Below are positions 1-13,805 of a stretch of DNA of 64,000 nucleotides, in pieces; position 1 is the first letter of the stretch; each line of letters begins with the position of its first letter. Both the position numbers and the translations under genes were made by a program. Under the pieces are notes generated by a model, which did not search any database, had not been told where the DNA came from, and saw nothing but the letters and a program-made list of their open reading frames with translations. Source of the DNA: a bacterium (GTDB lineage Bacteria; UBA10199; 2-02-FULL-44-16; JAAZCA01); assembly GCA_021810905.1 (NCBI GenBank), contig JAJZQH010000003.1:1897-65896 (forward strand). Reading direction: 5' to 3'.

Positions 1-3000
1 AAAAGCAGGCGAAAGAGCGCCGCAAAGAGCACCATAAAGAGGCTCGAATGATTCTCCCGTGCCAGCGCCTTTAGCTTGTGCGCCACATCCTGACTGATGA
101 CAGTTCGATATTGCGCGGTTCTCCTGTCCGCGACGTCTCCTCCCTCACTATCGTGCGGCATCGAGGGGATGAAGAGTTCCGTCTTCTGTAAGGCATCCCT
201 CCAAAAGTCGATTTCAGGCTGTATCAATCTCCTGTCGCTCAGAAATCGGCGGTGCCATTCCGAATAATCACGAAACTGAAGCGAAGGAAGACCTGGCGTA
301 AAGCGCTCGCCGCCGTGTCGAGATCGCAGCATGGCCTCGATTTCGCGCTTCAGATTGTACAAGGACCACCCGTCTCCTATAATATGATTCATCGCGAAGA
401 GGAGATCCGATCCAACATCTCCGTTCTGCACCATGACCGCCCTGAAGAGCGATGGTTCCTCCAAAGCAAAAGCCGCGTCGCCTTCCTTCGCGGCGAGTGC
501 AGCAAACTCCGTCGCTACCTTCTCCCCTCTCTCGTTGGAAAGATCGACCATCCTGAAATGCAGCCGCCCGGTCTCGTGAATCCGCTGAAATACGCAGCCA
601 TCCTCCTCTTCGAACGATGTCCGCAAGCTTTCATGCCTGCGGACGATCAGGCAAAGCAACTCTTGAAGAACATCCGCCTCCACATTGTCGTCGAGATGCA
701 TGGTAAAGACCATGTTCGACGAGGCATCAGCCGGCTCCTCGCGATATCGCCGCCAGATCCTCTTCTGCGCGATGGTAGCATCATAGCGATCACAATCAGA
801 CGCAGGACGGATGATATATCGGCTTGCTCCCTCCCGCCGATTTCTCAACATTTCCGCAAGCGAGGCGATCGTCGGATGAATATAAATCGTCCTGATCCTG
901 AGATCCGCATGGAAGATGCGGTTCACGGCATTCATAACCTGCATCGCCCGCATCGAATGACCGCCGAGATCGAAGAAATCGTCATCTATACCGACTTCCT
1001 CCACACCCAGTTCGCGCTTCCAAATCTCTATCAATTGATTTTCCAATTCATCTTGCGCGCCGCGCCCGCCAGCACGCGGTCTCGTCGCCCCCTCTCGCTC
1101 TCCAGGACGGATCGGCCCTTCACATGTCAGGGCCGCATTCAATTCGCCACACTCGCCGATCCGCAGATCCGGATAATCCAGAATCTCCATGATTATCCGT
1201 TCAAAGGCCGAGACATAAGATCGGACTGTCGCCCCACTGAGTAGATTCGGGGCAAAAGCGAAGGATAAATGCAGTCCGCGCTCAACGTCATGAACGTGCA
1301 ATGCGAGCGGAAATTTCGCCGAGACGAAATCACCTTCTATTTTCTTGAATGAAGCATCCCCTATAAAGAGATGCGTAAAATCATGACTAACCTGACCGAA
1401 CATGACATCAAAGAGCTGCGCATGAGTGGATATTCCGTTCGCGTAAAGCCGGCCGACGAGATATTCAAACTGATACTCAGACCGATCATATCCTTCGAGG
1501 ATCACACCTCGCACACGGCGCATGAACTCACGCCATGTCAGATTCGAGCACATACAAAATCGCAGGGGTAACGTGTTGACGAACAGGCCGACCACTCGAT
1601 CGAACTCCGCGTTTTTACGATCCGTGAAGGGCATGCCGATGGTCACGTCCTTGCCGCCCGCAGCCCTCGAAAGGAGGACCGTCAGCGCCATCATCAATAC
1701 CATGTAGGTCGTCGCAGATTCCTCCTGTGCGAATCGCAGAAGACGCTCCGCGATACCCGAATCGAGATCGAGGGCGATGGACTCTTCTACGCAATCGAAC
1801 GATGAGAGTTGATCCCCCAGGATTGGAAGGGATTTTGTCTTCTCAATATCGCGGCATCGTTCTGACCAATATGCCTCATGCGCGTGTTTTACCGTGCTCT
1901 CGCGCAACCGCTGATGTTCCGAAAAATCTCTATATTGAAATACAGTCTCTGGGAGGATCTTTCCTCGATAGAGCGCATCCAGATCGTGAAAAAGGACGTG
2001 AGCGGACCGATCATCGAAGATGATATGATGCACGTCCATCGCGAGCACCTTCCTCCCGTCATCATATTCGACCAGGGCAAACCTCAAAAGAGGTGCCCTT
2101 TCCAGGCAAAAGGGACGGACGAACCGTTGCAGGGCACGCGTTTCACCATCGATTCGGTCGATTCGAAATGGAACAGATCGATGAATCCGCTGAAGCATGT
2201 TCCCATGCGCCACCTCGAAGGATGTCCTCAACGACTCATGGCGTTCGATCAGCGCCAGCACCGATGATTCGAGTTTCGGTACGTCGATATCGCCCAATAT
2301 CTCGTAAAAGAGAGGGATGTTATATGCGGTACTCTCCGGATGAAGTTGCTGCAGCAGGTAGAATCGGCGCTGAGACGATGACATTTCATAGCTATCGCGG
2401 GACTCGGTTCGATTGATTTCCGAAGTTGTCAAGACGCCATCGGCCGGAATTTTTCGAGCTAATTCCGCAATGCACGGATGTTCGAAGATATCGCCTATGG
2501 AAATCTCGGCGCCGAATTCGTTTCTGACGCGATCAACGATGCGAAGCGCGATCAAGGAATGCCCTCCGAGGTCGAAAAAATCATCGCGGACTCCCGCGCA
2601 TTCCATGCCGAGCTCTTGTCGCCAGATATCCGCCAGACGCAACTCAACGTCACTGCGCGGGGCCTCATATTCGTCATGAAATTCGGAGACCGCTTCCGAA
2701 AGCGCCGCACGATCCACTTTCCCGTGGATCGTGCGCGGTAACCGCGCCAATGACACAAATCTAGAGGGAACCATATAGCGCGGCAACATCTCCAGCATAT
2801 GTCGCCTAAGCTGCGTAACCCTATTATCTCCGTCAAAGACGACATAGGCCGACAGCGTTTTTTCGTCATGGACCGTTTGATTCACGACAACGACGTTTTC
2901 CTTTACCCCGCGATATGCAGCGATGCACTTCTCCACCTCTCCAAGTTCGATTCTATAACCACGCACCTTTACCTGATCATCGCGGCGGCCTATAAAATCG

Positions 3001-4181
3001 ATATCGCCCTCGGGAAGCATTCGCGCAAAATCGCCCGACCGATACATCCGCTCTCCGGGAACGAAAGGATCCGCGGAAAAGCGTTCCGCCGTCAGCCGCT
3101 CGTCATGGAGATATCCGCGTGATACCGCCGCGCCTGCAATATGGATCTCGCCCACTTGTCCGTCGGAAACTCGGAGTCCATCGTCGCCCATGAGATAGAT
3201 GCGCGTATTCGCAACAGGCTTCCCGACGGGGACATTCTCTCCGGGTTTGGGGCCGGTACGATAGCGATACGTCGTAGCGCAGATCGTCGTCTCAGTCGGA
3301 CCGTATGCATTGATGACGATCATTCGCTCATGCATGTCCTGATATCTTTTGAGGACTTCATCCCGGATCGGCTCGACGCCGACGAGAAGTTTTCGAAGTC
3401 GCAGCGTATCACGGGATCCGCTCAGAATCCTCGATACGTCGTCTATAAATCCAGGCGGAATGTACGCAAAAGTGACACCCTTCTCCCGAATCACATGGGT
3501 AAACTCCTCAACATCGTAGCATTGATCGTTCTTGAGCAGGATCAAACGCGATCCATGAAAAAGCGGGAGAAATATTTCGGCAACGCTCACGTCAAACGAG
3601 ATGCTGGCGCCGGCGAGAAAGACATCCGTTTCATCCAGGCGTCCTTCATAGACATCAGCCATGTGATGAATGAAGTTGGCGAGCTGGGCATGCTCGACCA
3701 TCACGCCCTTAGGCTTTCCCGTGGAACCGGACGTATATATGACATAAGCCAAATCGGACGGATCGGGCTGTACCTCCGGTTCCTCGATATCTCCCCGGAG
3801 GAAGAGGGAATCGTCCAGATCGATCACACGATATTCGTCGCTCCATTTCCACAAACTGCAGCTGCCGGACGTCATCACCACGCTCGATCCGCTCTCCTCC
3901 AGAATGCACTCGATACGCTTTCGCGGATTGGCGGAATCGAGCGGCAGATAGGCACCACCCGCCTTCAGGGCGGAAACCATGCCCACGATCATTTCGATCG
4001 ACCGATCGGCGACGATCCCTACGATTACATCGCGCCCGACGCCAAGCCCGCGGAGCCGATTAGCGATACGGCCCGCCCTCTTGTTCAACTCTCCATAGGT
4101 AATCCCTCGATCGCCGCACTCCACCGCTACGGCCTCGGGCCGCATCCTGCCCCACCTGCCGATAGCTTCAAACACCATCAT
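1..4181 (-). CDS. Non-ribosomal peptide synthetase, multi-module (A-T-C-T-C...), 3' end beyond window start (partial)
   Basis: Manual reverse-complement translation, in codon phase with the + shadow ORFs 252..1244 and 3141..4451. Gives canonical motifs: A3 core LAYVIYTSGSTGKPKG (revcomp of ~3719-3763), NAYGPTET, GERMYRSGDFARMLPEGDIDFIGRRDDQVKVRGYRIELGEVE (~2930-3050), LPRTIHGKVDRAAL (~2700). Two PCP motifs DDFFDLGGHS (Ser codons ~2550 and ~952). Two C-domain His motifs MDVHHIIFDD (~2000-2030) and MNHIIGDGWS (~370-395). No in-phase TTA/CTA/TCA codons seen on + strand between 3 and 4214, so the - frame is open to position 1. Absent from ORF track because its stop lies outside the window. ATGATG start at 4181 overlaps the agmatinase stop (ATGA). 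Confidence 0.8.
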   Translation of the reverse strand, partial: MMVFEAIGRWGRMRPEAVAVECGDRGITYGELNKRAGRIANRLRGLGVGRDVIVGIVADRSIEMIVGMVSALKAGGAYLPLDSANPRKRIECILEESGSSVVMTSGSCSLWKWSDEYRVIDLDDSLFLRGDIEEPEVQPDPSDLAYVIYTSGSTGKPKGVMVEHAQLANFIHHMADVYEGRLDETDVFLAGASISFDVSVAEIFLPLFHGSRLILLKNDQCYDVEEFTHVIREKGVTFAYIPPGFIDDVSRILSGSRDTLRLRKLLVGVEPIRDEVLKRYQDMHERMIVINAYGPTETTICATTYRYRTGPKPGENVPVGKPVANTRIYLMGDDGLRVSDGQVGEIHIAGAAVSRGYLHDERLTAERFSADPFVPGERMYRSGDFARMLPEGDIDFIGRRDDQVKVRGYRIELGEVEKCIAAYRGVKENVVVVNQTVHDEKTLSAYVVFDGDNRVTQLRRHMLEMLPRYMVPSRFVSLARLPRTIHGKVDRAALSEAVSEFHDEYEAPRSDVELRLADIWRQELGMECAGVRDDFFDLGGHSLIALRIVDRVRNEFGAEISIGDIFEHPCIAELARKIPADGVLTTSEINRTESRDSYEMSSSQRRFYLLQQLHPESTAYNIPLFYEILGDIDVPKLESSVLALIERHESLRTSFEVAHGNMLQRIHRSVPFRIDRIDGETRALQRFVRPFCLERAPLLRFALVEYDDGRKVLAMDVHHIIFDDRSAHVLFHDLDALYRGKILPETVFQYRDFSEHQRLRESTVKHAHEAYWSERCRDIEKTKSLPILGDQLSSFDCVEESIALDLDSGIAERLLRFAQEESATTYMVLMMALTVLLSRAAGGKDVTIGMPFTDRKNAEFDRVVGLFVNTLPLRFCMCSNLTWREFMRRVRGVILEGYDRSEYQFEYLVGRLYANGISTHAQLFDVMFGQVSHDFTHLFIGDASFKKIEGDFVSAKFPLALHVHDVERGLHLSFAFAPNLLSGATVRSYVSAFERIIMEILDYPDLRIGECGELNAALTCEGPIRPGEREGATRPRAGGRGAQDELENQLIEIWKRELGVEEVGIDDDFFDLGGHSMRAMQVMNAVNRIFHADLRIRTIYIHPTIASLAEMLRNRREGASRYIIRPASDCDRYDATIAQKRIWRRYREEPADASSNMVFTMHLDDNVEADVLQELLCLIVRRHESLRTSFEEEDGCVFQRIHETGRLHFRMVDLSNERGEKVATEFAALAAKEGDAAFALEEPSLFRAVMVQNGDVGSDLLFAMNHIIGDGWSLYNLKREIEAMLRSRHGGERFTPGLPSLQFRDYSEWHRRFLSDRRLIQPEIDFWRDALQKTELFIPSMPHDSEGGDVADRRTAQYRTVISQDVAHKLKALARENHSSLFMVLFAALFRLL

Positions 4182-5113
4182 AATGCGCCGCCCTTCGTGA
4201 CAGAAGTCTTCCCCTCACGATGCACGTTTGCAAAGATTTCGCCGATGATACCGAGGACTGAAGCGATGGTGATGTTGGAGACATCCAACGATGGGGCGAA
4301 TTCCACGATATCGAAGGCGCGCACTGAAATCGGAAGCGACTCGATCATCTTGAGGAGCACGCTTACCGGGATTCCGGCGGCCACGGGCGTTCCCGTTCCC
4401 GGAGCACAGGATGGATCGAGCACATCCACGTCGACCGACACATACAGATGATCGACACGGCGGGAGATATCTTCAACGCCTCGTCGAAATCGCTCCAGCG
4501 CACCAGTATCGAAGAGAAGTTCGTCTGAGGGCAGCTCGTGAATGCCCGTCCGCTTGATATACGGCATCTCCTCCTGTTCATACGCGCGCGTTCCCACCAG
4601 GAGGCAGTCGGTCGGCCTGATCTCCGTCGTTTCAATCGCGCGACGCAGCGCCGATCCATGTGAGAAAGAAAAACCATGATACGTATCGAGTAGATCGGGA
4701 TGCGCGTCGAACCAGATAACACCCGTCCTCCCTCGCTTCGCCACAGCCTTGAGGATAGGATGGGTAACGGAGTGATCGCCCCCTATGGACACAAGCGTTG
4801 AATCCGTCCCGTCAAGGACGGCGGAACAGCTGCATTCTATGGCGTCGAATGTCTTCATCGCATCGAAGGTGGAAACGTCAACATCTCCAATGTCGAGGAT
4901 CCGTATTGACGACAGGTCATCGCCGCGACGGGATGTCGATTTCAACCTCCCAGTCATGGATCGCACTCGCCCGGGCGCAAAAGCGGCGCCACGCTGGCCG
5001 CCGGCTCCTCCGTCGAATGGTATCCCGAGGATGAGCACGTCGGCATCGCCAGGGGAATTCGCTTTTGTCCCCACTCCGTTCCATGCGCCATATCCTTCGG
5101 ATTTTAAAAACAT
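4178..5113 (-). CDS. Agmatinase/arginase-family ureohydrolase
   Basis: ORF 4178..5206 trimmed to ATG at 5113 preceded by GGAGGAATGTT. Ureohydrolase motifs SIGGDHSVTHP, WFDAHPDLL, VSVDVDVLDPSCAPGTGTP. Confidence 0.85.
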   Translation of the reverse strand: MFLKSEGYGAWNGVGTKANSPGDADVLILGIPFDGGAGGQRGAAFAPGRVRSMTGRLKSTSRRGDDLSSIRILDIGDVDVSTFDAMKTFDAIECSCSAVLDGTDSTLVSIGGDHSVTHPILKAVAKRGRTGVIWFDAHPDLLDTYHGFSFSHGSALRRAIETTEIRPTDCLLVGTRAYEQEEMPYIKRTGIHELPSDELLFDTGALERFRRGVEDISRRVDHLYVSVDVDVLDPSCAPGTGTPVAAGIPVSVLLKMIESLPISVRAFDIVEFAPSLDVSNITIASVLGIIGEIFANVHREGKTSVTKGGAL

Positions 5114-5238
5114 AACATTCCTCCTATTCGAGAGCCCGTAACCCCGGACATTGCATGCAGGTCGAGTGTCCCAAAAAACAGCCCCGACAAAACGCTGGCT
5201 GGTCATGCATCATCCATGGGCACACAGTGATATTGCGC

Positions 5239-5823
5239 CTAGGGAATCGGCACAACGTTGAACTGGAACTGGGTCCCATCGACGATCTTCCGTTCAATGC
5301 TGTCAAGATCGCTCACGACTGCACAATAAGACGCCAGCCAATCAAGCGCCCTCTGTTTGTCGCTGTCACGGGTGGAGACCACTCCGTCGGACGGTACGAT
5401 CACATGATAGCCCCGGAAATAAGCATCCGCCGCCGTCGTTTGCACACATATCTGCGTCTGCATACCTGTGATGACGATGGTATCGACACCCAGCACCTTA
5501 AGACGTTCGTCGAGTTTCGTCTCGAAGAACCCGCTATCCTTATTCTTCTCAACGATGATATCACGATCATCGAGGTAGTCCTGTGCTATCATTGCGCCCT
5601 TTGTACCGCGCAGGACGGGCAACACGCCGTTATGAAGCTCCGCGTGGTTGTCGTCCTCGTCATAGATCAGCTGAAGATGGACGATTGGAATATTCATCTC
5701 GCGCATTTTTTTGAGAAAGCGGATCATCGAAGGAGCGAATCGCTCGACCTGCTTGCGGCGCTCTTCATTCTTGTTAATGAGGTCATACTGCAGATCGTTG
5801 GTTAAAATTGCATATCGCGCCAT
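5239..5823 (-). CDS. Isochorismatase-family (cysteine) hydrolase
   Basis: ORF 5239..5895 trimmed to MARYAILTND start (ATG 5823, GGGGAG SD 7 nt upstream). Catalytic-Cys region VITGMQTQICVQTTA typical of the isochorismatase family. Confidence 0.75.
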   Translation of the reverse strand: MARYAILTNDLQYDLINKNEERRKQVERFAPSMIRFLKKMREMNIPIVHLQLIYDEDDNHAELHNGVLPVLRGTKGAMIAQDYLDDRDIIVEKNKDSGFFETKLDERLKVLGVDTIVITGMQTQICVQTTAADAYFRGYHVIVPSDGVVSTRDSDKQRALDWLASYCAVVSDLDSIERKIVDGTQFQFNVVPIP

Positions 5824-5878
5824 TTTGGACTCCCCTAAATATTGAACAACAAATTCGTGCACAATAGCTTCCATTCGC

Positions 5879-7294
5879 TCAGATGGACCGACCAATATTC
5901 CTCTTCATCATTGTTGAAAATCGCGAAAGTCCATCCTTCCAGATTTCGAAAATCTCCTGCTCGTCGAGATATTCTGTTCTGGTCACGGATGGCTGATCTT
6001 CTCGCCAGCTGTCAAAGTTTTCGCCAATAATCGTCAAATGATAGCGTTCGAAATTATGGTAGAGGTCGGTCCCCGGATAAGGCGTCGTGATATAGTACTC
6101 CACGATATCCGCGAGCCCCTCTTCGAGCAGCTTTTCGGCATAGGCGATCGTCCGGTAGGCGGTATCCCTCGATTCGCCAGGCAGCCCAACCATCCAGTAA
6201 AGGAGGACATTCAGCCCGGCATCCTTGGCCATTTTACAGGATGCTCTGATCTGCTCGACTCGAATTCCCTTCCGGATGAGATCGAGTAATTCCTGGTTCG
6301 CACTCTCCGCGCCGTACTTGATGAGCCGGCAATTGCCCTCATGCATCTTTCGGAGGATTCGGGGGGTCACAAGATCGCAACGCGTCTGAGCGATCCATCG
6401 AAAACCCCGGTTCCGCATCTCCATTCCAAACTCCTCCACATAGGAGGGATTCGTCGTGAATGATTCATCGCCGACATAAAGCAGATCTATGTCAAAATAT
6501 TTTCGTAGAAGTTCCGCCTGCGTTACGGTTCGCTCCATACTCTGATACAACGGTTTTCTCCCCTTCCAGATCGTGTCCGCACAATACGCACAGTTATAGG
6601 TACAGCCCCTCGACGTATAGATCCGGGCGAAAGGAATCTGACCGCGATAGATGTCGTTCGGTATGAGATGATATGCCGGCATAGGGAGACGATCGGATAT
6701 GATCGCTTCCTTGCTGAATGGATTTACATTGATCTCACCATCACGTTTCCACGAGATTCCCGGGATACCTCTAAGATCTCCGCCATCATGGAGGCACCGT
6801 AATAGATCTGGCAGGATGAATTCGCCCTCCCCTCTCACAACGATATCGATATCCTCCTCTTCCAGGCATGAGCGATCCGTATAGGACACATGTGGTCCGC
6901 CAAGAACAACGAAGACATCTCGGCCCAGCACTTTTTTGACCAATCGGGAAACGCGAACGGCAACGCTGAAACTATTGGTAAAAGGCGACATGCCAACCAC
7001 ACGAGATGTGACCTGGCTGAGTTCCCTCGCAATGGCATCATAGTCGATGTCGCATCCGGAATAAGATGTGAGATCCAGGACATCTGCGGTCAAGCCTTCG
7101 TGCTCAAGGGTTCCCCCCAACGCGGCAATCCAAAGCGGGAGCTCCTTGATGTCGTAGATCGGGGCTTTTACGAATTTTCCACCGATTCTCCGTTCAAAGA
7201 AATCCCAGTAGACATCATAAAACGCGCTCTCCTCTTTATGAATGAACGGTTTCGCGATCAGCGGAAGCTGGATAAACGTAAAATCACTGTTCAT
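5879..7294 (-). CDS. B12-binding-domain radical SAM protein (class B rSAM, putative methyltransferase)
   Basis: 471 aa. CxxxCxxC cluster motif in YTSRGCTYNCAYCAD about 230 aa in, preceded by an N-terminal Rossmann-like (cobalamin-binding type) domain. ATG at 7294 overlaps hypF stop (ATGA). Confidence 0.8.
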   Translation of the reverse strand: MNSDFTFIQLPLIAKPFIHKEESAFYDVYWDFFERRIGGKFVKAPIYDIKELPLWIAALGGTLEHEGLTADVLDLTSYSGCDIDYDAIARELSQVTSRVVGMSPFTNSFSVAVRVSRLVKKVLGRDVFVVLGGPHVSYTDRSCLEEEDIDIVVRGEGEFILPDLLRCLHDGGDLRGIPGISWKRDGEINVNPFSKEAIISDRLPMPAYHLIPNDIYRGQIPFARIYTSRGCTYNCAYCADTIWKGRKPLYQSMERTVTQAELLRKYFDIDLLYVGDESFTTNPSYVEEFGMEMRNRGFRWIAQTRCDLVTPRILRKMHEGNCRLIKYGAESANQELLDLIRKGIRVEQIRASCKMAKDAGLNVLLYWMVGLPGESRDTAYRTIAYAEKLLEEGLADIVEYYITTPYPGTDLYHNFERYHLTIIGENFDSWREDQPSVTRTEYLDEQEIFEIWKDGLSRFSTMMKRNIGRSI

Positions 7295-9630
7295 GATATT
7301 TCCTCGTCTCCAATCGATGAGCGGCCAAACTGGAGACCCGCGATGATCGCCTGTCCAAGCGACACACCGCCGTCATTGCTCGGAACCCTCGAATGCCTAT
7401 AAACGGAGAACCCGTCGTGCGTGAGAGAGCGGTAACAATGCGAGAGAAGAAATTCATTCATGAAGACACCGCCGCTCAAGACGACCTTCGCAAGCCCATG
7501 CGTGAGCCGGATGCGATGACAAACGTCTCTGACAATATCTACGATCGTTTGATGAAAACGACGGCTGATAACGCCAAGCGAGATGCCACCTCGCACGAGG
7601 AGATCCACGATCTCACGAATCATCGGCCGCATATCAATCATCCCAGAGGATGTTGATTCCATGAAGTCATAAGAGAACGATGTAAATTCATCCTCTCCGT
7701 CCGCCATGATGTATTCGAGTGCCATGGCCGCATGCCCTTCATGGGAAATTGACTCGATCACGCCGATAAGCGCGGAAACAGCATCAAACAAGCGGCCCAT
7801 GCTCGACGTTTGTGGAGAATTGATCCCTTGTTTCGCCATACGCAGAAGGAGATCCAGTTCGTCGCCCTGTCGTTCTCGGATAATCGGCAGGGGGAGTTCA
7901 CGAAGCACGTGCTCATCGTAGATCTGTGAAAGAATACCTATCGCCGTTCTATAGGGATGCTGCACAGCTTTATCTCCACCCGGAAGCGGAAAAGGCCGCA
8001 GGCAGGCAAAACGCTGAAATTGTTCATAACCTCCGACAAGGAACTCACCGCCCCAGATGCTGCCATCGGCGCCGTATCCGGCTCCATCGAAGATGACGCC
8101 GATCACGTCCTCATCCAGGCCATGCTCGCACATACATGAAGCCATATGGGCATGATGATGTTGAACCCTGACCACAGGAAGATGTTCCATTTCCTCGGCA
8201 TAGGCGCTCGTCAGAAAATCCGGATGGAGATCGCATGCTACAAGCTCAGGCGCAATATCATAGCTCGCCCTGATATGATCGATGATCTCACGGAGGAACC
8301 GGTAGATATATTGATTATTGATATTTCCTATATGTTGACTGACGAACATCCTCCTGTCCTTTGTCAGGCATATCGTGTTCTTCAGATCTGCACCGAGCGC
8401 CAACACGGAAGGAAGGGTACGATGGCACATGATCGGATGGGGGGCATATCCGCGCGCTCGGCGGAGTATCTCAACATGATGGCCATCCCCATTCGAGCCC
8501 ATACATCTGACGATCGAATCGTCGATTCTGATATGGATATTGCGGTCATGCGAAAGAAAAAAATCTGCGACGTCTTCGAGCTTCGTCAAGGCATCGTCGT
8601 CATCGCTGATGATCGGCTCATCAACCGCATTGCCGCTTGTGGCCACAAGTGCCGGAAAATGACCCCGGAGCAAGAGATAATGAAGGGGTGTGGAAGCAAG
8701 CATGACTCCGTAGCGACGGTTATCCGGGGCTACAGCCTGGCAAATGAGATCGTTCTTCTTCTTTCGGAGCAAAACGATGGGACGTTGTGGGGAAGCAAGC
8801 AACTGCCGTTCATCCTCCGAAACATGCGCAAAACAACGTACCTTGTCGATTTCGTCGGACATCATCGCAAAAGGCTTGAGGCTGCGCCGCTTCCTCCTGC
8901 GCAACTCGTTGACGGCGTCTTCCTGCGACGGATCAACCATTAAATGATAGCCGCCTAGCCCCTTGACGGCGATAATTAACCCTTGCCGCAGAAAATTCAC
9001 GGTTTCAAGGATGGGATCGCGGGTATCTACCGGCTCGCCATCTCGCCGCTTGAGAAAGAGCTGCGGTCCGCACTTCCAGCACGCATTGGGCTCTGCGTGA
9101 AATCGTCGATCCGACATATCCTCATATTCATCCATGCATTCCTCGCACATCCGGAACACATGCATCGTCGTATTGCACCGATCGTAGGGAATGTCCTTGA
9201 TGATGGAGTATCGAGGCCCACAATTCGTGCAGTTGATGAAAGGGTAACGATGCCGCCGGTCGGCGGGGTCGAAGAGTTCAGACAAACACTCGGAACAGAT
9301 GCTGGCGTCGGGAGAGATGAGTGTTTCGCGTGAGGCATCTTGCCTGCTCTCCAGGATGCGAAACTCCTTATGGAGGCCAGTCGCCTTTTCGACTGAGATG
9401 AGCTTGATCTCATCAACGACGGCCATGGACGGCGCATCGAATTTGAGCTCCTGAATGAATTTCGCGCTTTCCTCCTGCGGCCCTTCAATTTCGACAACCA
9501 CGCCCCGTGAATTGTTGAGGACCCATCCGCGAAGATCGTATTTCTTGGCGACGCGATAGACAAAGGGCCTGAATCCTACTCCCTGTACGATCCCGCTGAT
9601 CAGATATCGGCGCACTTCAAACATGGCCAT
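7291..9630 (-). CDS. hypF: Carbamoyltransferase HypF (acylphosphatase + two Zn fingers + YrdC + Kae1-like domains)
   Basis: 779 aa. N-terminal acylphosphatase motif VQGVGFRPFVYRVA. Two CxxC-x18-CxxC zinc fingers (CSECL...CTNCGPRYS and CEECMDE...CWKCGPQL). YrdC-like and Kae1/HypF C-terminal regions. GGAGG SD upstream of ATG 9630. Confidence 0.85.
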   Translation of the reverse strand: MAMFEVRRYLISGIVQGVGFRPFVYRVAKKYDLRGWVLNNSRGVVVEIEGPQEESAKFIQELKFDAPSMAVVDEIKLISVEKATGLHKEFRILESRQDASRETLISPDASICSECLSELFDPADRRHRYPFINCTNCGPRYSIIKDIPYDRCNTTMHVFRMCEECMDEYEDMSDRRFHAEPNACWKCGPQLFLKRRDGEPVDTRDPILETVNFLRQGLIIAVKGLGGYHLMVDPSQEDAVNELRRRKRRSLKPFAMMSDEIDKVRCFAHVSEDERQLLASPQRPIVLLRKKKNDLICQAVAPDNRRYGVMLASTPLHYLLLRGHFPALVATSGNAVDEPIISDDDDALTKLEDVADFFLSHDRNIHIRIDDSIVRCMGSNGDGHHVEILRRARGYAPHPIMCHRTLPSVLALGADLKNTICLTKDRRMFVSQHIGNINNQYIYRFLREIIDHIRASYDIAPELVACDLHPDFLTSAYAEEMEHLPVVRVQHHHAHMASCMCEHGLDEDVIGVIFDGAGYGADGSIWGGEFLVGGYEQFQRFACLRPFPLPGGDKAVQHPYRTAIGILSQIYDEHVLRELPLPIIRERQGDELDLLLRMAKQGINSPQTSSMGRLFDAVSALIGVIESISHEGHAAMALEYIMADGEDEFTSFSYDFMESTSSGMIDMRPMIREIVDLLVRGGISLGVISRRFHQTIVDIVRDVCHRIRLTHGLAKVVLSGGVFMNEFLLSHCYRSLTHDGFSVYRHSRVPSNDGGVSLGQAIIAGLQFGRSSIGDEEIS

Positions 9631-9652
9631 TTGCGCCTCCGCAATAACGTAT

Positions 9653-10675
9653 TCAGCATAGTCTCGGAAGTTCAGCCCCCTGCAGCAACTGGACGATTTT
9701 TTCCTCCCCGCCTTCGCCGCACATCACGACGTGGCAATCATCACATTCTAACACTTTACCGATGACCGATGCGTGTTCCCCATATCGATGCCGACGGAGC
9801 GTTTCGACAATCCCCTTGCTCGCTCCGGAGGAAGCGAAGATGCAGACATTCCCTTCATTGGCGAGGTAGAGAGGATTTACGCCCAGCATGTCCGCGGCCA
9901 TAACGGTCTCATGCAGGATGGGAAGCCGCACCTGTTCGATGCGCACGCCGAACCCCCCTAGCTGCGAGATCTCGTTTAAGAGCGTTCCCAACCCGCCACG
10001 CGTGATATCGCGCATGCAATGAATACGATTCCCAAACTCTTTCAGCACACCCGCAATCATATCGTTGAGTGGAGCGCAGTCGCTTTGAATCCGCCGTTCG
10101 AACCCCAACCCTTCACGAATTGAAAGTATATGGATGCTGTGATTGCCGAGCTGTCCGGAGATGATGACATCGTCGCCTGGCCGAATGGACGATATCGAAA
10201 GATGTATATCATTAGGCTGAAAAATACCGATGCCGGATGTGTTGATAAAAATCTTGTCGACCTCGCCGCGTTTGACGACCTTCGTATCCCCGGCAACGAT
10301 ATACACTTCCGCCTCCAGTGCCGCGTCACGGATGGAATGCAGGATCTGTTCGAAATCCGAAAGCGGGAAGCCCTCCTCCAGGACGAAGGCGAGCGTCAGG
10401 TACAGCGGCTTGGCGCCGCTAACAGCCAGGTCGTTCACCGTGCCGCAAACGGCGAGCTTACCAATATTCCCGCCGTGAAAAAAAATCGGATCCAGAACAA
10501 AAGAATCGGTGGTGATAGCAATGCGATCGGCCTTCCACTCGAGTACGGTGCTGTCCTCCATCTGGCCTCGGTGGGTCTCACCGAGGCATCGCACGATGAC
10601 ATCTCTGATGAGATCCCCACTCAACTTGCCACCGGTTCCGTGATCGAGCACAATGCGATCTGACAGATAATTCAT
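9653..10675 (-). CDS. hypE: Hydrogenase maturation protein HypE (PurM-like carbamoyl dehydratase)
   Basis: N-terminal VLDHGTGGKLS. PurM-like fold. C-terminus ends ...GAELPRLC with the conserved terminal Cys that carries the thiocyanate in HypE. Track ORF begins at TTG 10693; ATG at 10675 preferred. Confidence 0.85.
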   Translation of the reverse strand: MNYLSDRIVLDHGTGGKLSGDLIRDVIVRCLGETHRGQMEDSTVLEWKADRIAITTDSFVLDPIFFHGGNIGKLAVCGTVNDLAVSGAKPLYLTLAFVLEEGFPLSDFEQILHSIRDAALEAEVYIVAGDTKVVKRGEVDKIFINTSGIGIFQPNDIHLSISSIRPGDDVIISGQLGNHSIHILSIREGLGFERRIQSDCAPLNDMIAGVLKEFGNRIHCMRDITRGGLGTLLNEISQLGGFGVRIEQVRLPILHETVMAADMLGVNPLYLANEGNVCIFASSGASKGIVETLRRHRYGEHASVIGKVLECDDCHVVMCGEGGEEKIVQLLQGAELPRLC

Positions 10676-10867
10676 TTCCAAGCCGCCTATCAATAAAAGA
10701 GCAACGATGGTGCCAAATTTCGCGAGTCACCGGCAAAGCCAGAGATTATACGGTCCGCACAAAATAAGCCCTTCGCAAACATAGTGAGCACAGTGTTACA
10801 CATGCAAAAAAAAAGCAAGGGCAATACAAATGAATTCATATCCCAAACCTTACAGGTCGAAAAGTTA

Positions 10868-10913
10868 ACCGCGCTCAAAAATGAGAGAACGGGAGGGGAC
10901 GTCCCGTTCTCTC
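10868..10913 (-). terminator. Rho-independent terminator hairpin (12-bp stem GAGAGAACGGGA/TCCCGTTCTCTC, 7-nt loop) followed by U-run on - strand
   Basis: Perfect inverted repeat 10883-10894/10902-10913. A-run 10876-10880 on + strand gives a U-tract downstream on the - strand. Lies 3' of small ORF 10935..11228 and upstream of hypE. Confidence 0.5.
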
Positions 10914-10934
10914 AGGTTGAACTGCTTCGAAAAC

Positions 10935-11228
10935 CTATGCCTCTTTAGGCGATCTGTGATAGCGATTCTTACGCTTGCCATCGCGTTGATTGAGCTCATG
11001 ATATATGAAAGTGGACAACGTCTTGATGACTCTCTCTTCCAGGGGGAGGAGATTCTCTCGCGCCAGCTCTCTCTTCCACCTCTTCGATATGCCGCGAAGA
11101 AAGAGGACGATGCGCTCCACCGTGCGGCCGTCCAGGTGTCCGATGCGGACGTCGGCCTTCTGAATCCTGTTATGGTCAAATCTCAGAGGCCTGAAATCAG
11201 CATTCAAGCGCTTCAAGAACGCCTGCAT
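10935..11228 (-). CDS. Hypothetical small protein (97 aa)
   Basis: ORF between lysE-like gene and hypE on same strand. No recognisable motif. Followed by terminator hairpin. Confidence 0.3.
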   Translation of the reverse strand: MQAFLKRLNADFRPLRFDHNRIQKADVRIGHLDGRTVERIVLFLRGISKRWKRELARENLLPLEERVIKTLSTFIYHELNQRDGKRKNRYHRSPKEA

Positions 11229-11300
11229 GAGTCCTGATGCCTTATTCCTCCTGGTCTCATCTTTCGGTAGATGGAAATCGTCCAGGGGCTCGTCTTTCTT

Positions 11301-11939
11301 CTATCGGAAATAGGATGCGATCAACGAGGCTGCGATGAAGGCCATGATGCACCCGATGATGATATCCAGCCACCTCCATACGACGGCTCTCTTCAAGATG
11401 GAAGAGAGAAGGTGCGAGAAGAGCGCCAACGCGGAAAACCAGAGGAGTTCCGCCAGAAAAATGCCGAGGAGAAAGAAGGGCCTTTGAGGGAGAGATAATT
11501 GCCCGCCGACGCTGCCGATCAGGACGATGTTGTCCAACAGCGCATGCGGATTTAACCAGGAGAAGGCGAGAGTCGAGGCGACGATCTTTCCCAACGTAGG
11601 ACCGTTCGGCATGCCTCCGTTTGCGTTGAGGACTTTCGGTCTGATCGCCGACTTGAAGGAGAGGAATCCGTAATACAGGAGAAACAGGGCTCCTCCCCAA
11701 AGGGCGACGTTTTTCACCGTGGGCGAACGGGAAATGAAGAACCCCACGCCGTAGACCCCGGCCACGGCGAGGGAGACGTTCAGGATGATCGAGAGGGCGG
11801 CGATCGTCAGGACGTGTTGACGTTGCAGCCCCTGCCGCAGGACGAACGCATTCTGCGCGCCGATGGCAACGATGAGGCCGAGATTGAGGGCCAGTCCCTG
11901 GGAGAGAGGAGTGAGCGAGCAATCCATCAAGTTCATCAT
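11301..11939 (-). CDS. LysE/ArgO-family amino-acid exporter
   Basis: 212 aa. Six predicted TM helices. LysE-type translocator signature region LNLGLIVAIGAQNAFVLRQGL. Confidence 0.8.
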   Translation of the reverse strand: MMNLMDCSLTPLSQGLALNLGLIVAIGAQNAFVLRQGLQRQHVLTIAALSIILNVSLAVAGVYGVGFFISRSPTVKNVALWGGALFLLYYGFLSFKSAIRPKVLNANGGMPNGPTLGKIVASTLAFSWLNPHALLDNIVLIGSVGGQLSLPQRPFFLLGIFLAELLWFSALALFSHLLSSILKRAVVWRWLDIIIGCIMAFIAASLIASYFR

Positions 11940-11996
11940 AAGCGTATTTTCGAATTTTTCAATATCCGTTCCTTATGGTTCTACTACAATGAATCC

Positions 11997-12872
11997 ATGA
12001 GATACCTCTACGTGATTCTTCTGTTCGCTTTTCTGGTGGCTCCGCTCGCGTCCTGCGGTTCGAGTACGACAACGGTTTTTGATTTGAGAATGGCGCAGAC
12101 GCTGCAGCAATCGCTGGATCGCTCGGTGAGCGAGCTCAACATCCCGGGCGCGGTCATGGCGGTACGCGCGCCCGACGGGTCGATCTGGTCCGGCGCCAGC
12201 GGCTACGCAACGCTCCCCAACTCTGCTCAACCTTCCGGCGTGCGCATGACGACCGACATGCACCTGCGCATTGCCAGCATGATCAAGTCTTTCACTGCCA
12301 CGATGATCCTCCAGCTCGTGGACGAGGGGAAGCTCACGCTCGACGAGACGCTGGATCAGGTCATGGCGCAGTGGTTCGCGCCCGGCGTCATCGACTTCGC
12401 GATACCCTACAGCGACGCCATCACGATCAGGCACCTGCTCGAGATGCGCAGCGGCATGCCGAATTATTCCAATACGCCGGCCTTCTTAGCCCTGCTCGCG
12501 CAGCAGCCGCCGCAGCCGGTGGAAGCGAAGGAGCTCATCCGCATGAGCGTGCAGAGCGCCAATCCTGCTCCATATCCGCCGGACACTCGTATGGAATACT
12601 GCAACACCAACTACATCGTGCTCGGGATGATCGTCGAACAGGTCACGGGCAACCCCTACGCCGTTGAATGGCATCGTCGTCATCACCAACGGCGAACGGG
12701 GCGCACATCCAGAAGCCGGCCGTCACCCCGCACGCTCGATCTTCTGGAACGCGGTCCGGGACGCGGGCATTTATTTGCCATGAGAGCGCATGCGCCTGCT
12801 CAGCATTTTGAGCGAGCGCTTCAATTCGTCGCTGATCTCAACCGGATGAAGACCTGCTTCATTCCCGGATAG
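11997..12872 (+). CDS. Serine hydrolase, beta-lactamase/DD-peptidase-like lipoprotein (possible C-terminal frameshift)
   Basis: Track ORF 11814..12872 trimmed to ATG 11997 (MRYLYVILLFAFLVAPLASCGSS, lipobox LASC). SxxK motif SMIKSF. YxN motif YCNTNY. C-terminal 60 aa are R-rich and atypical. Confidence 0.6.
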   Translation: MRYLYVILLFAFLVAPLASCGSSTTTVFDLRMAQTLQQSLDRSVSELNIPGAVMAVRAPDGSIWSGASGYATLPNSAQPSGVRMTTDMHLRIASMIKSFTATMILQLVDEGKLTLDETLDQVMAQWFAPGVIDFAIPYSDAITIRHLLEMRSGMPNYSNTPAFLALLAQQPPQPVEAKELIRMSVQSANPAPYPPDTRMEYCNTNYIVLGMIVEQVTGNPYAVEWHRRHHQRRTGRTSRSRPSPRTLDLLERGPGRGHLFAMRAHAPAQHFERALQFVADLNRMKTCFIPG

Positions 12873-13805
12873 AGCACCTTGGAGGGCGAGAGCTTCATGC
12901 GCGCGCTGCCCGCGTAATCAACGAGCTTATATGCCATGTCCAGATGCGGGGCATCCGCGGACGTTGAAAACTTCGTGCCCACTCCGAATCCGTCGATCGG
13001 CGCGCCGCGGTCGAGCAATCTTTTGATCTCATATTCGTCGAGGCTGCTGGAGGCGAAGATCTTCACGTTTCTGAGGCCAGCGGCGTCAAGCCGTTCCCTC
13101 GCCGCCTTGGAGAGCGAGAGCAGATTGCCGGAGTCGAGCCGGATGGCATTGATGCGGAAACGTCGTCCGAGCCTTCGGCTCAGTTCGACCACCTTTTCCA
13201 CGCCGCCAATTGTGTCGTAGGTATCGACCAGGATCGTAGAGCCTGGATAGAGACGCGCGAATCGCTCAAAGGCTTCCAGTTCATCGTCGTGCGCCTGGAT
13301 GTAGCTGTGAGCCATGGTCCCGAAGAGCGGAATGCCGAAGATTTTTGACGCGAGCACGTTCGATGTACCGGCGAAACCAGCGAGATAGCCGCTCCTGGCG
13401 GCAAGCAACCCCGCCTCAATTCCGTGCGCGCGCCTCGATCCGAAATCTACGACCGCTCTGCCCAAAGCCGCGCGGACGATGCGCGAGGCCTTTGTGGCGA
13501 TCGCGCTCTGAAAATGGATCTGGTTATGGTGGCGCCGAGGATGAGATGGACCTCAAATCCTTCGCGCAGGCCGTCGAGAACGGTCTCGAATACGCAGACC
13601 TCGAGCACCAGCCCGCAGACCCATAGCCGAGCGACGCCAGCCTTGCGCAGATCAGCGGCGAGAGGGCATCACGTAAAAGCGGAATATTCCTCAATATCGC
13701 TCGCAGCGGCCTTGAGGAGGATCGTGGCGTCGTCAGGGAGATCGACGATGATGAGCGCGTCCGATGTGGCGTGAGTTCTGGAATGAGCCGAGTCATAAAG
13801 TTCAA
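12821..13805 (-). pseudogene. pncB: Nicotinate phosphoribosyltransferase (NAPRT, pncB-like) disrupted by frameshift
   Basis: C-terminal part ORF 12821..13465 has NAPRT motifs VVDFGSRRAHG and GTMAHSY. N-terminal continuation NQIHFQSAIATKASRIVRAAL is in the same frame but cut by TGA near 13540. Upstream NAPRT-like sequence continues in another frame. One missing A in the run around 13512-13516 would restore GATI-NQIHFQ. Confidence 0.55.

What the first reader, a model, noticed from the sequence alone, without database searches (positions are those of the whole stretch)
1..11939. Candidate biosynthetic gene cluster coupling an NRPS to a complete HypE/HypF cyanide-ligand synthesis pair
One DNA strand carries eight genes in close succession: a LysE exporter, a small ORF, hypE, hypF, a class-B radical SAM enzyme, an isochorismatase-family hydrolase, an agmatinase-family ureohydrolase, and a multi-module NRPS. 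Adjacent genes are translationally coupled by ATGA overlaps at hypF/rSAM and agmatinase/NRPS. hypE to hypF has only a 20-nt gap. HypF carbamoylates the C-terminal Cys of HypE, and HypE dehydrates it to a thiocyanate, the CN donor for [NiFe]-hydrogenase. No hydrogenase, hypC or hypD is in the 64 kb. The association with an NRPS, a tailoring rSAM and an ureohydrolase suggests HypEF is repurposed to install a cyano/thiocyanate or carbamoyl-derived group on a peptide natural product. I am not aware of a characterised precedent.
Basis: partly seen in the sequence, partly recalled or inferred. Interest (0 to 1): 0.9.

Follow-up and report, generated by a model that had tools for sequence, protein, structure and literature searches.

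The report
Hydrogenase-free HypE/HypF biosynthetic gene cluster
Two enzymes known only for making the cyanide ligands of nickel-iron hydrogenases sit here in a peptide-synthetase gene cluster, as part of a widespread, uncharacterised cassette (found even in some E. coli, Bacillus and Streptomyces) that seems to use the same chemistry to build a small molecule.

Summary
On the minus strand lie LysE, a doubtful 97-aa ORF, HypE, HypF, a B12-radical SAM enzyme, an isochorismatase-family cysteine hydrolase, an arginase-family ureohydrolase and an NRPS. No hydrogenase or hypA-D was found in the 64 kb.

HypE and HypF belong to a distinct clade. Its HypE members are 51-70% identical across phyla but only 39-44% identical to canonical HypE. 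All 22 examined end in PRLC, not PRIC. This clade is almost always adjacent to the same cysteine hydrolase: 68 of 75 judgeable loci, with no HypD within 10 kb in 85 loci.

E. coli R32_14_1F and the Paraburkholderia phymatum plasmid pBPHY02 carry this cassette in addition to a canonical hyp operon. Common partners are a diaminobutyrate transaminase or an arginase-family enzyme, an NRPS or ATP-grasp ligase, and an exporter. All four close homologues of the window's radical SAM enzyme that I looked up lie in arginase + hydrolase + HypE + HypF clusters.

The product and chemistry are unknown. I infer transfer of a carbamoyl-phosphate-derived CN unit to an amine. I found no characterised precedent, only a passing remark in one 2020 paper.

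The parts
1..4181 (-). NRPS, N-terminal 1393 of 1560 aa. Domain order of the complete protein is A-T-C-T-C, with no thioesterase or reductase domain. The start codon overlaps the ureohydrolase stop (ATGA).
   Evidence: AMP-binding, 2x PP-binding, 2x Condensation. One search gives the full length on GCA_027327785.1 contig DAHVYM010000026.1. One search shows the junction. One search gives the specificity code DVAYLGAICK.
4178..5113 (-). Arginase-family ureohydrolase (311 aa from the ATG that follows AGGAGG; a longer ORF starts at 5206). It is agmatinase-like but scores below the equivalog cutoff.
   Evidence: PF00491, E 4e-64; TIGR01230 162 bits against a cutoff of 174. One search shows the GGDH, DAHPD and DVDVLDP metal motifs. 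It is 42-48% identical to the arginase-family genes of the H. gestii, L094 and S. clavuligerus clusters.
5239..5823 (-). Isochorismatase-family cysteine hydrolase (194 aa). This is the invariant partner of this HypE/HypF clade.
   Evidence: PF00857. Searches show D10, K93 and C126 invariant. One search gives the nearest solved structures: 3hb7, 3eef (N-carbamoylsarcosine-amidase-related), RutB, nicotinamidase and biuret hydrolase. Searches give the synteny.
5879..7294 (-). Class B (B12-binding) radical SAM enzyme (471 aa). The start codon overlaps the hypF stop (ATGA).
   Evidence: One search shows CTYNCAYC. One search lists homologues at 57-60% identity. Searches show that all four looked up lie in arginase + Isoc + HypE + HypF clusters.
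7291..9630 (-). HypF-type carbamoyltransferase (779 aa), complete five-domain architecture.
   Evidence: TIGR00143, 798 bits against a cutoff of 466; 721 bits to 3VTH/3VTI HypF; four CxxC motifs; member of the cassette clade.
9653..10675 (-). HypE-type carbamoyl dehydratase (340 aa from the annotated ATG). The C-terminus is GAELPRLC.
   Evidence: TIGR02124, 421 bits against a cutoff of 252. One search compares it with the solved HypE chains 3vti_C, 2z1t and 2i6r. Searches give the clade and the discriminating columns.
10882..10914 (-). Terminator-like hairpin (13-bp stem, then TTTTT) between the small ORF and hypE. It probably marks the 3' end of a separate LysE transcription unit.
   Evidence: This is a consensus match only.
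10935..11228 (-). 97-aa ORF of doubtful reality. It is called as a gene in the public record but has no domain and no detected relatives.
   Evidence: no family. (called gene). (matches only in the loci cut from the same genome, L001 and L007; none in any other locus).
11301..11939 (-). LysE/ArgO-family basic-amino-acid exporter (212 aa), the candidate exporter of the product.
   Evidence: PF01810; TIGR00948 172 bits and ArgO 156 bits, both below their equivalog cutoffs.

Best explanation
Window bases 1-10675 (continuing about 500 bp beyond base 1), plus the neighbouring LysE exporter, form one version of a widespread, uncharacterised biosynthetic cassette. The cassette is built around a hydrogenase-independent paralogous pair of HypE and HypF and a dedicated cysteine hydrolase.

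Proposed mechanism:
1. HypF makes carbamoyl-AMP from carbamoyl phosphate and carbamoylates the C-terminal cysteine of HypE (PRLC).
2. HypE dehydrates the thiocarbamate, using ATP, to a protein-bound thiocyanate. These two steps are inferred from the complete conservation of both enzymes. They have been shown only for canonical homologues.
3. The activated one-carbon/one-nitrogen unit is not given to a HypC/HypD iron scaffold. With the help of the co-conserved cysteine hydrolase, it goes to a primary amine of a basic amino-acid-like intermediate.
4. In the commonest cassette, that amine is made by a diaminobutyrate transaminase. In the window's version it would be unmasked from a guanidino compound by the arginase-family enzyme.
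5. The result would be an N-cyano (cyanamide), guanidino/cyclic-guanidino or ureido building block.
6. The B12-radical SAM enzyme modifies this block or its precursor. The A-T-C-T-C NRPS joins it to another amino acid. The LysE-type transporter exports the product.

Shown here: the gene content, the separate HypE/HypF clade, the conserved synteny, and co-existence with canonical hyp genes in other genomes. Inferred: every chemical step after HypE, the acceptor and the product.
For: Family assignments and intact motifs.

Separate clade. Cassette HypE proteins are 51-70% identical to one another across Firmicutes, Actinobacteria, Proteobacteria and Myxococcota, but 39-44% identical to the canonical HypE of E. 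coli and P. phymatum. The HypF tree has the same shape. All 22 cassette HypE proteins end GAE[LI]PRLC, whereas canonical and crystallised HypE proteins end PRIC.

Synteny. A scan of 185,579 species genomes with the hydrolase gave 122 relatives. Of the 80 loci kept, 75 were judgeable and 68 have hydrolase -> HypE -> HypF adjacent on one strand.

No hydrogenase context. E. coli HypA, HypB and HypD probes give 0 hits in 85 loci of +/-10 kb, and HypC gives 1. Hydrogenase subunits appear only in Paraburkholderia.

Second copies. P. phymatum pBPHY02 carries hupSL-hypABFCDE and, divergently, ectB-GNAT-hydrolase-hypE-hypF. E. coli R32_14_1F carries hypABCDE-hyc at 1.17 Mb and LysR | hydrolase-hypE-hypF-HAD-MFS at 1.99 Mb. 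That island is present in 17 of 5426 complete E. coli genomes.

Biosynthetic partners:
- A diaminobutyrate-2-oxoglutarate transaminase in 53 of 80 loci, above the TIGR00709 cutoff in all 5 tested.
- NRPS domains in 18 of 80 loci. In Streptomyces the cassette is flanked by NRPS genes on both sides.
- A DdaF-like ATP-grasp ligase and an EamA exporter in Hafnia.
- Arginase + ATP-grasp + MFS in S. clavuligerus.
- LuxCDE + arginine 2,3-aminomutase + agmatinase in a Nannocystaceae genome.

The window's own gene set recurs. Homologues of its radical SAM enzyme at 57-60% identity lie in arginase + hydrolase + HypE + HypF clusters in Heliomicrobium gestii (with ATP-grasp), in a metagenome contig (with an A-T-C-A-T-C NRPS and MFS) and in two further contigs. 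That is 4 of 4 looked up.

The cluster has lower G+C (0.534) than the rest of the window (0.579), and it ends at mobile-element-like genes.
Against: No experiment and no product.

The rest of this genome could not be searched. A canonical hydrogenase that depends on this pair cannot be excluded for this organism.

Only two full-length canonical HypE/HypF pairs (plus three PDB HypE chains for the C-terminus) served as the outgroup.

The role of the cysteine hydrolase is unexplained.

The minimal E. coli island has no amine-generating enzyme, so the acceptor need not be a special amine.

The window's adenylation-domain code (DVAYLGAICK) has no acidic residue of the kind expected for a basic substrate.

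In Paraburkholderia the cassette lies only a few kb from a hydrogenase operon.

The literature library lacks most subscription-journal papers, so a published characterisation could have been missed.
Confidence: 0.62

Rival explanations
1. Carbamoyl-only use. HypF/HypE serve as a carbamoyl carrier. The thiocarbamate on HypE is attacked by an amine to give a ureido (N-carbamoyl) product without any nitrile stage. The cysteine hydrolase, whose relatives hydrolyse N-carbamoyl and ureido compounds, edits or recycles such products.
For: The nearest characterised relatives of the hydrolase act on carbamoyl or ureido groups: an N-carbamoylsarcosine-amidase-related structure, RutB and biuret hydrolase. 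Ureido amino acids are known building blocks of nonribosomal peptides (general knowledge).
Against: HypE stays under strong constraint as a full HypE: TIGR02124 is above its cutoff, and 69 columns are identical in both canonical references and in all 21 cassette sequences. This would be unnecessary for a passive carrier. Simpler carbamoyltransferases (TobZ/NodU type, ornithine-transcarbamylase type) do this job without a HypE (general knowledge).
Confidence: 0.15
2. Small-molecule release. The hydrolase/HypE/HypF trio makes a free one-carbon nitrogen compound (cyanide, thiocyanate, cyanate or cyanamide). This is exported, or is used by the neighbouring enzymes as a diffusible reagent.
For: The minimal E. 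coli island holds only LysR, hydrolase, HypE, HypF, a HAD phosphatase and an MFS transporter, with no amine-generating or ligating enzyme. The trio is the only invariant part of the cassette.
Against: Most loci couple the trio tightly to amino-acid-building and ligating enzymes: diaminobutyrate transaminase in 53 of 80, and NRPS or ATP-grasp in 21 of 80. Two ATP per released cyanide, with a stoichiometric protein carrier, is a costly route.
Confidence: 0.12
3. Maturase for another metalloenzyme. The pair supplies cyanide ligands to a metal centre of a protein other than [NiFe]-hydrogenase, for example in the hydrolase or another cluster enzyme. The NRPS product would then be unrelated to it.
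For: The only proven role of HypE/HypF is metal-ligand synthesis. Arginase-family guanidine hydrolases are known to need Hyp-like nickel chaperones (general knowledge; not tested here).
Against: There is no HypC/HypD-like scaffold in 85 loci. The only invariant partner is a 194-aa cysteine hydrolase with an ordinary Asp-Lys-Cys triad and no metal-site motif. The variable partners share no metalloenzyme.
Confidence: 0.06
4. Coincidence. These are the organism's ordinary hydrogenase-maturation hypE and hypF, which merely lie next to an unrelated NRPS cluster.
For: Both proteins pass the HypE and HypF equivalog models. Best phosphoglucomutase matches are to Syntrophobacteraceae and Verrucomicrobiae MAGs, and I expect many Syntrophobacteraceae to have hydrogenases (general knowledge). 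The rest of the genome was not searchable.
Against: The genes are translationally coupled to the radical SAM enzyme, with the rest of the cluster in tight succession. They belong to the cassette clade, not the canonical one. The same gene set recurs in unrelated organisms. There is no hypC or hypD nearby, whereas in both canonical operons examined hypD is next to hypE and hypC lies within a gene or two.
Confidence: 0.04

Closest known systems
Canonical HypE/HypF of [NiFe]-hydrogenase maturation (E. coli HypE/HypF; the Caldanaerobacter HypE-HypF complex, PDB 3VTI)
   Same: Same two protein families with full domain sets, scoring above the equivalog cutoffs and carrying the C-terminal cysteine. 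The window's HypE scores 270 bits and its HypF 721 bits against the 3VTI chains. The first two chemical steps are presumably the same.
   Different: A separate clade at 39-44% HypE identity, ending PRLC instead of PRIC. Never found next to hypC or hypD. Always found next to a cysteine hydrolase. Co-exists with a canonical set in E. coli and P. phymatum. Embedded in small-molecule clusters.
Tailoring O-/N-carbamoyltransferases of natural-product clusters (TobZ, NodU/CmcH, GdmN type)
   Same: They share the YrdC-like and Kae1-like catalytic modules and carbamoyl-AMP chemistry with HypF, and they occur in biosynthetic clusters (general knowledge; PMC9633730 appeared but I did not read it).
   Different: Those enzymes lack the acylphosphatase and zinc-finger domains. 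They act directly on the small molecule and have no HypE partner, so no dehydration to a nitrile. The window has a complete HypF plus HypE.
Orphan hypE/hypF + ATP-grasp candidate cluster family reported by decRiPPter in Streptomyces (PMC7794033)
   Same: Probably the same cassette. The S. clavuligerus locus has hypE-hypF beside hydrolase-arginase-ATP-grasp-MFS. That paper also noted the absence of other hyp genes and proposed a new function.
   Different: It was mentioned in one paragraph as a possible RiPP cluster. The hydrolase partner, the clade, its distribution and the NRPS versions were not described, and nothing was characterised.
Ectoine-type diaminobutyrate pathways (EctB, then EctA and EctC)
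   Same: The commonest cassette carries an EctB-family diaminobutyrate transaminase. This scores above the EctB equivalog cutoff in Bacillus albus and P. phymatum, the latter also with a GNAT gene.
   Different: No EctC. The hydrolase/HypE/HypF trio takes its place. The window's version has no transaminase at all and has an arginase-family enzyme instead.

Membership tests
HypE (carbamoyl dehydratase, TIGR02124) | PurM-like AIRS N- and C-terminal domains, with an equivalog HMM score above the curated cutoff | tested here: met
   PF00586 and PF02769 both hit. TIGR02124 scores 420.9 bits against a cutoff of 251.6.
HypE (carbamoyl dehydratase, TIGR02124) | C-terminal cysteine in a PR(I/V)C tail, which carries the carbamoyl and cyano group | tested here: met
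   The protein ends ...GAELPRLC. The cysteine is terminal. Leu replaces Ile, as in all 22 cassette sequences.
HypF (carbamoyltransferase, TIGR00143) | Acylphosphatase domain, two zinc fingers, a YrdC-like domain and a Kae1-like domain in one chain | tested here: met
   All five Pfam models hit. TIGR00143 scores 798 bits against a cutoff of 466. Four CxxC motifs are present.
Hyp [NiFe]-hydrogenase maturation system | Genomic association with hypC/hypD (the Fe(CN)2CO scaffold), hypA/hypB and a [NiFe]-hydrogenase | tested here: not met
   None is present in the 64 kb window. HypD, HypA and HypB give 0 hits and HypC gives 1 hit in 85 related loci. The whole genome of this organism could not be searched.
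Hyp [NiFe]-hydrogenase maturation system | The pair is required for hydrogenase activity | not testable with these tools
   This needs genetics. Indirectly, relatives of the cassette co-exist with a canonical hypEF set.
Nonribosomal peptide synthetase cluster | Adenylation, thiolation and condensation domains | tested here: met
   One AMP-binding, two PP-binding and two Condensation domains. Asp235 and Lys517 of the specificity code are present.
Nonribosomal peptide synthetase cluster | A dedicated release domain (thioesterase or reductase) | tested here: not met
   The 1560-aa protein ends with a condensation domain, and no thioesterase gene follows it. Release by the terminal C domain onto an amine is an inference.
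Isochorismatase-like cysteine hydrolases | Asp-Lys-Cys catalytic triad | tested here: met
   D10, K93 and C126 are invariant in the subfamily and align with the triad regions of 3hb7 and 3eef.
Class B (cobalamin-dependent) radical SAM enzymes | N-terminal B12-binding domain plus a CxxxCxxC radical SAM core | tested here: met
   PF02310 and PF04055 both hit, and CTYNCAYC is present. No equivalog cutoff is reached, so the reaction type is unknown.
Ureohydrolases (arginase/agmatinase family) | Binuclear-metal ligand motifs GGDH, DAHxD and DxDxxDP | tested here: met
   All three motifs are present. PF00491 hits at E 4e-64. The agmatinase equivalog scores 162 bits against a cutoff of 174, so the substrate is not assigned.

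The most novel reading that the evidence does not exclude
The S-cyano cysteine on cassette HypE acts as a protein-borne electrophilic cyanating reagent, a biological counterpart of cyanogen bromide. It would convert the omega-amine of diamino acids (2,4-diaminobutyrate, ornithine-like amines) into cyanamide or (cyclic) guanidine groups. That would be a de novo, arginine-independent route to N-C-N functional groups from carbamoyl phosphate. It would be present from E. coli and the Bacillus cereus group to Streptomyces, and would feed NRPS, ATP-grasp and other pathways.
Probability: 0.3. Interest if true: 0.9.

Novelty: new variant of a known kind. Interest (0 to 1): 0.8.

Why it matters
HypE and HypF are textbook single-purpose enzymes. 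Their only established job is to make the cyanide ligands of [NiFe]-hydrogenase.

A conserved, hydrogenase-independent sister pair with its own partner enzyme would open a second biological use of enzymatic thiocyanate chemistry. The hydrolase partner has relatives in 122 of about 185,000 species genomes, and the cassette was confirmed in 68 of 75 judgeable loci. It sits inside NRPS, ATP-grasp and other small-molecule clusters.

It likely leads to natural products with rare cyano, cyanamide, guanidino or ureido groups.

It is directly testable, because culturable carriers exist: Hafnia paralvei ATCC 29927, Bacillus albus, Cohnella faecalis, Heliomicrobium gestii, Streptomyces clavuligerus and 17 sequenced E. 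coli strains.

It also warns that 'hypE/hypF' annotations do not by themselves indicate hydrogen metabolism.

Tried and rejected
- Looking up the Cohnella HypE (P0007) in the contig index failed. The locus was recovered later from the genome scan as L009.
- A naive longest-ORF clustering of all neighbour genes was unreliable in high-G+C actinobacterial loci because of spurious antisense ORFs. I replaced it with probe-based tblastn censuses and a GC3-filtered ORF call.
- Rfam found no riboswitch or other RNA in 1-13000 or upstream of four related cassettes, so there was no guanidine or other ligand clue.
- Taxonomy was not settled. Cluster look-ups returned no names. Phosphoglucomutase gave about 76% identity to Syntrophobacteraceae, Verrucomicrobiae and other MAGs alike. 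Outer-membrane genes show only that the organism is diderm.
- The window's genome was not among the 80 loci kept from the species-representative scan. Its hydrogenase content therefore stays unknown.
- The region upstream of hypE holds no remnant of the short hydrolase paralogue or of the arginase gene found there in sister clusters.
- The adenylation-domain code did not match any code I can recall, so I make no substrate call.
- Eight literature searches found no characterised example.
- My first guess at the position of the canonical hyp operon in E. coli R32_14_1F was wrong, because that genome is numbered in the opposite direction. I corrected this.


Full report
**1. What is in the window**

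Family scans give the following assignments:

| Coordinates | Gene product | Evidence |
|---|---|---|
| 11301-11939 | LysE-family exporter | PF01810 |
| 10935-11228 | 97-aa ORF | no family |
| 9653-10675 | HypE | TIGR02124, 421 bits vs cutoff 252; ends PRLC |
| 7291-9630 | HypF | TIGR00143, 798 bits vs cutoff 466; all five domains |
| 5879-7294 | B12-binding radical SAM enzyme | PF02310 + PF04055 |
| 5239-5823 | isochorismatase-family protein | PF00857 |
| 4178-5113 | arginase-family protein | PF00491 |
| 4181 to beyond base 1 | NRPS | A, T and C domains |

- I read the junctions directly. hypF/radical-SAM and ureohydrolase/NRPS each overlap by ATGA.
- The hypE-hypF spacer is 22 nt and contains GGAGG.
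- The hydrolase and the ureohydrolase are each preceded by a ribosome-binding site.
- The radical SAM enzyme has CTYNCAYC.
- The ureohydrolase has its three metal-ligand motifs, and HypF has four CxxC motifs.

On the public contig (GCA_027327785.1, DAHVYM010000026.1) the NRPS is 1560 aa with the domain order A-T-C-T-C. It has one adenylation domain and no thioesterase. It is followed by small mobile-element-like genes, so the cluster ends there.

A 13-bp terminator-like hairpin at 10882-10914 separates LysE and the small ORF from hypE. The tightly coupled unit is therefore the six genes from hypE to the NRPS.

The cluster has G+C 0.534, against 0.579 for the rest of the window.

**2. No hydrogenase context in the window**

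Pfam scans of the remaining large ORFs found the following:
- Kdp potassium transport genes
- Pst/PhoU phosphate genes
- a phosphate-selective porin
- alkaline phosphatase
- phosphoglucomutase
- two-component systems
- an RND efflux system

tblastn with E. coli K-12 HypA, B, C, D, HycE/G/I and HyaA/B/D found nothing in the window.

**3. The invariant partner is the cysteine hydrolase**

The closest HypE relatives (63-65% identity) sit in quite different neighbourhoods. In each case they lie directly after a gene for the same isochorismatase-family protein and before hypF.

That hydrolase subfamily is very well conserved, at 56-63% identity, with an invariant Asp10-Lys93-Cys126 triad. Its nearest solved relatives are cysteine amidohydrolases acting on carbamoyl, ureido or amide groups. 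It is a narrow subfamily: only 11 clusters at E <= 1e-30 among 1.84 billion representatives.

I scanned one genome per species (185,579 species) with the hydrolase. This gave 122 relatives, of which 80 loci were kept. They come from:
- Solirubrobacterales, Streptomyces and other actinomycetes
- Cohnella and Bacillus albus
- Hafnia, Kalamiella, Photobacterium and Psychromonas
- Paraburkholderia
- a Nannocystaceae MAG

In 68 of 75 judgeable loci the order is hydrolase -> HypE -> HypF on one strand. E. coli HypD, HypA and HypB probes hit none of 85 loci (+/-10 kb), and HypC hit one.

**4. A separate clade that co-exists with canonical Hyp**

- Cassette HypE proteins are 51-70% identical to each other across four phyla.
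- They are only 39-44% identical to the canonical HypE of E. coli and P. phymatum.
- The HypF tree has the same shape.
- All 22 cassette HypE proteins end GAE[LI]PRLC. The canonical and crystallised proteins end PRIC.
- Eight columns discriminate the two groups.
- Even so, 69 columns that are identical in both canonical references are also identical in all 21 cassette sequences. The chemistry of the pair is therefore most simply assumed to be unchanged.

Two cases show directly that the cassette is an extra copy.
- Plasmid pBPHY02 of P. phymatum carries a full hupSL-hypABFCDE cluster. Divergently from it lie ectB-GNAT-hydrolase-hypE-hypF.
- E. coli R32_14_1F carries hypABCDE-hyc at 1.17 Mb. 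It also carries an island, LysR | hydrolase-hypE-hypF-HAD-MFS, beside a tRNA-Asn at 1.99 Mb. That island is present in 17 of 5426 complete E. coli genomes.

**5. The company the cassette keeps**

- **Diaminobutyrate transaminase.** In 53 of 80 loci a class-III aminotransferase is present within 10 kb, usually just after hypF. Five representatives all pass the diaminobutyrate-2-oxoglutarate transaminase family cutoff, and two pass the EctB equivalog cutoff.
- **NRPS.** NRPS domains lie within 10 kb in 18 of 80 loci. In Streptomyces the trio is flanked on both sides by co-oriented NRPS genes, with a 2OG-Fe oxygenase, a GNAT and an SHMT-like enzyme nearby.
- **Hafnia paralvei:** AraC | DdaF-like ATP-grasp - hydrolase - HypE - HypF - transaminase - EamA.
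- **S. clavuligerus plasmid:** DUF3865-hypE-hypF facing hydrolase-arginase-ATP-grasp-MFS.
- **Nannocystaceae MAG:** HypE-HypF-LuxD-LuxC-LuxE-hydrolase-methyltransferase-aminotransferase-arginine 2,3-aminomutase-agmatinase.

The recurring themes are three:
- an enzyme that makes or unmasks a primary amine on a basic amino-acid-like molecule
- an amide-bond-forming enzyme
- an exporter

**6. The window's own version recurs**

The B12-radical SAM enzyme has a small set of homologues at 57-60% identity. All four that I looked up lie in arginase + hydrolase + HypE + HypF clusters:

| Locus | Source | Extra partner |
|---|---|---|
| L093 | Heliomicrobium gestii | ATP-grasp ligase |
| L094 | metagenome contig | A-T-C-A-T-C NRPS and an MFS transporter |
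| L098 | metagenome contig | two glycosyltransferases |
| L099 | metagenome contig | none seen on the contig |

The window's ureohydrolase is 42-48% identical to the arginase-family genes of L093, L094 and S. clavuligerus.

The sister clusters also carry a second, shorter hydrolase paralogue. In the two examined (L093, L094) it has lost the catalytic cysteine. The window lacks it and holds no remnant of it.

The set {ureohydrolase, hydrolase, HypE, HypF, B12-radical SAM} is therefore a conserved core. It presumably makes a building block that variable enzymes (NRPS, ATP-grasp, glycosyltransferases) then elaborate.

**7. Mechanism**

Shown: the families, the clade, the synteny and the paralogy.

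Inferred from canonical biochemistry (established knowledge):
- HypF converts carbamoyl phosphate to carbamoyl-AMP.
- HypF then carbamoylates the terminal cysteine of HypE.
- HypE dehydrates the thiocarbamate, using ATP, to a thiocyanate.

Inferred from context:
- Without HypC/HypD, the activated CN unit is passed to an organic nucleophile.
- The most likely nucleophile is the primary amine supplied by the transaminase (diaminobutyrate) or by the ureohydrolase.
- The product would be a cyanamide, which can go on to a guanidine or cyclic guanidine, or hydrate to a urea.

The role of the cysteine hydrolase is open. It could be a transfer catalyst, a hydrolase of a carbamoyl or cyano adduct, or an editing enzyme.

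In the window, the B12-radical SAM enzyme would modify the building block or its precursor. The A-T-C-T-C NRPS would join it to an amino acid activated by its single A domain. Its specificity code is DVAYLGAICK, checked against GrsA as a ruler. That code is not basic-type and I cannot assign it. The NRPS would release the product through its terminal C domain, and LysE would export it.

**8. Rivals**

- A carbamoyl-only role.
- Release of free cyanide, thiocyanate or cyanamide. The minimal E. coli island favours this.
- Maturation of an unknown metalloenzyme.
- Plain coincidence.

Coincidence is hard to reconcile with sections 3-6.

**9. Novelty**

Eight full-text searches found no characterised example.

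The only mention is one paragraph in the decRiPPter paper. It noted hypE/hypF with an ATP-grasp gene, and no other hyp genes, in Streptomyces, and suggested a new function (PMC7794033).

The library omits most subscription journals, so this is absence of evidence only. NCBI's June 2026 family models still name these proteins as ordinary HypE, HypF and 'isochorismatase family cysteine hydrolase'.

I rate it a new variant of a known kind: known enzymes in a new, conserved, non-hydrogenase role. There is a fair chance of new chemistry.

**10. Limits**

- There are no experiments.
- The outgroup is two canonical HypE/HypF pairs, plus three PDB HypE chains for the C-terminus.
- The organism's taxonomy (a diderm MAG) and its hydrogenase content are unresolved.

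Noticed in passing
window 10882-10914 (minus strand): A perfect 13-bp G+C-rich hairpin followed by TTTTT lies just after the 97-aa ORF and about 200 nt before hypE. It suggests that LysE (and the small ORF) is transcribed separately from the hypE-NRPS operon.
   Followed up: partly
L093 6088-6552; L094 2051-2548; L098 6010-6513; L099 2786-3256: Sister clusters carry a second, shorter isochorismatase-family paralogue directly upstream of hypE. In the two I examined (L093, L094) it has lost the catalytic Cys and the N-terminal Asp motif, so it may be a pseudo-enzyme or adaptor. The window lacks it.
   Followed up: partly
L090 (E. coli NZ_CP074749.1 1988822-1995830): A small genomic island beside tRNA-Asn is present in 17 of 5426 complete E. 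coli genomes. It encodes LysR, cysteine hydrolase, a second HypE, a second HypF, a HAD phosphatase and an MFS transporter.
   Followed up: partly
L091 (P. phymatum pBPHY02 3757-25618): The symbiotic plasmid carries two HypE/HypF sets 13 kb apart. One lies inside hupSL-hypABFCDE. The other lies in ectB-GNAT-hydrolase-hypE-hypF and is followed by an IS4 transposase.
   Followed up: yes
L006 and about 44 Solirubrobacterales loci: In Solirubrobacterales the four-gene module (hydrolase-HypE-HypF-diaminobutyrate transaminase) sits at a conserved chromosomal position next to a class-I tRNA synthetase gene (probably leuS), and in the one locus annotated (L006) close to purine genes. This suggests vertical inheritance across the order rather than a sporadic cluster.
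   Followed up: no
window 39403-40374 (minus strand): A 323-aa protein matches the thaumatin family (PF00314, E 6e-15). I think of this as mainly a eukaryotic family, so it seemed unusual in a bacterium.
   Followed up: no
window 19175-21808 (minus strand): An 877-aa protein whose only recognisable part is a C-terminal sigma-70 region 4. The neighbouring 454-aa and 410-aa proteins have no confident family.
   Followed up: no
window 62001-64000: G+C drops to 0.467 from about 0.60 in the preceding 6 kb. This may be the edge of foreign DNA.
   Followed up: no
window 21883-23403, 33807-35507, 48162-50009, 52619-53983, 54301-55677: Several long ORFs (454-615 aa) have no Pfam match at all.
   Followed up: no
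L050 3234-3292: A selenocysteine insertion element (RF01989, 84 bits) lies at the start of a molybdopterin formate-dehydrogenase-like gene upstream of the Hafnia cassette. It is unrelated to the cassette.
   Followed up: no
L092 15017-15733: In S. clavuligerus a DUF3865 protein is encoded directly upstream of cassette hypE. From memory DUF3865 belongs to the heme-oxygenase-like fold; I did not check this. The Pfam match is weak and below the gathering score (29.9 bits against 31.6).
   Followed up: no
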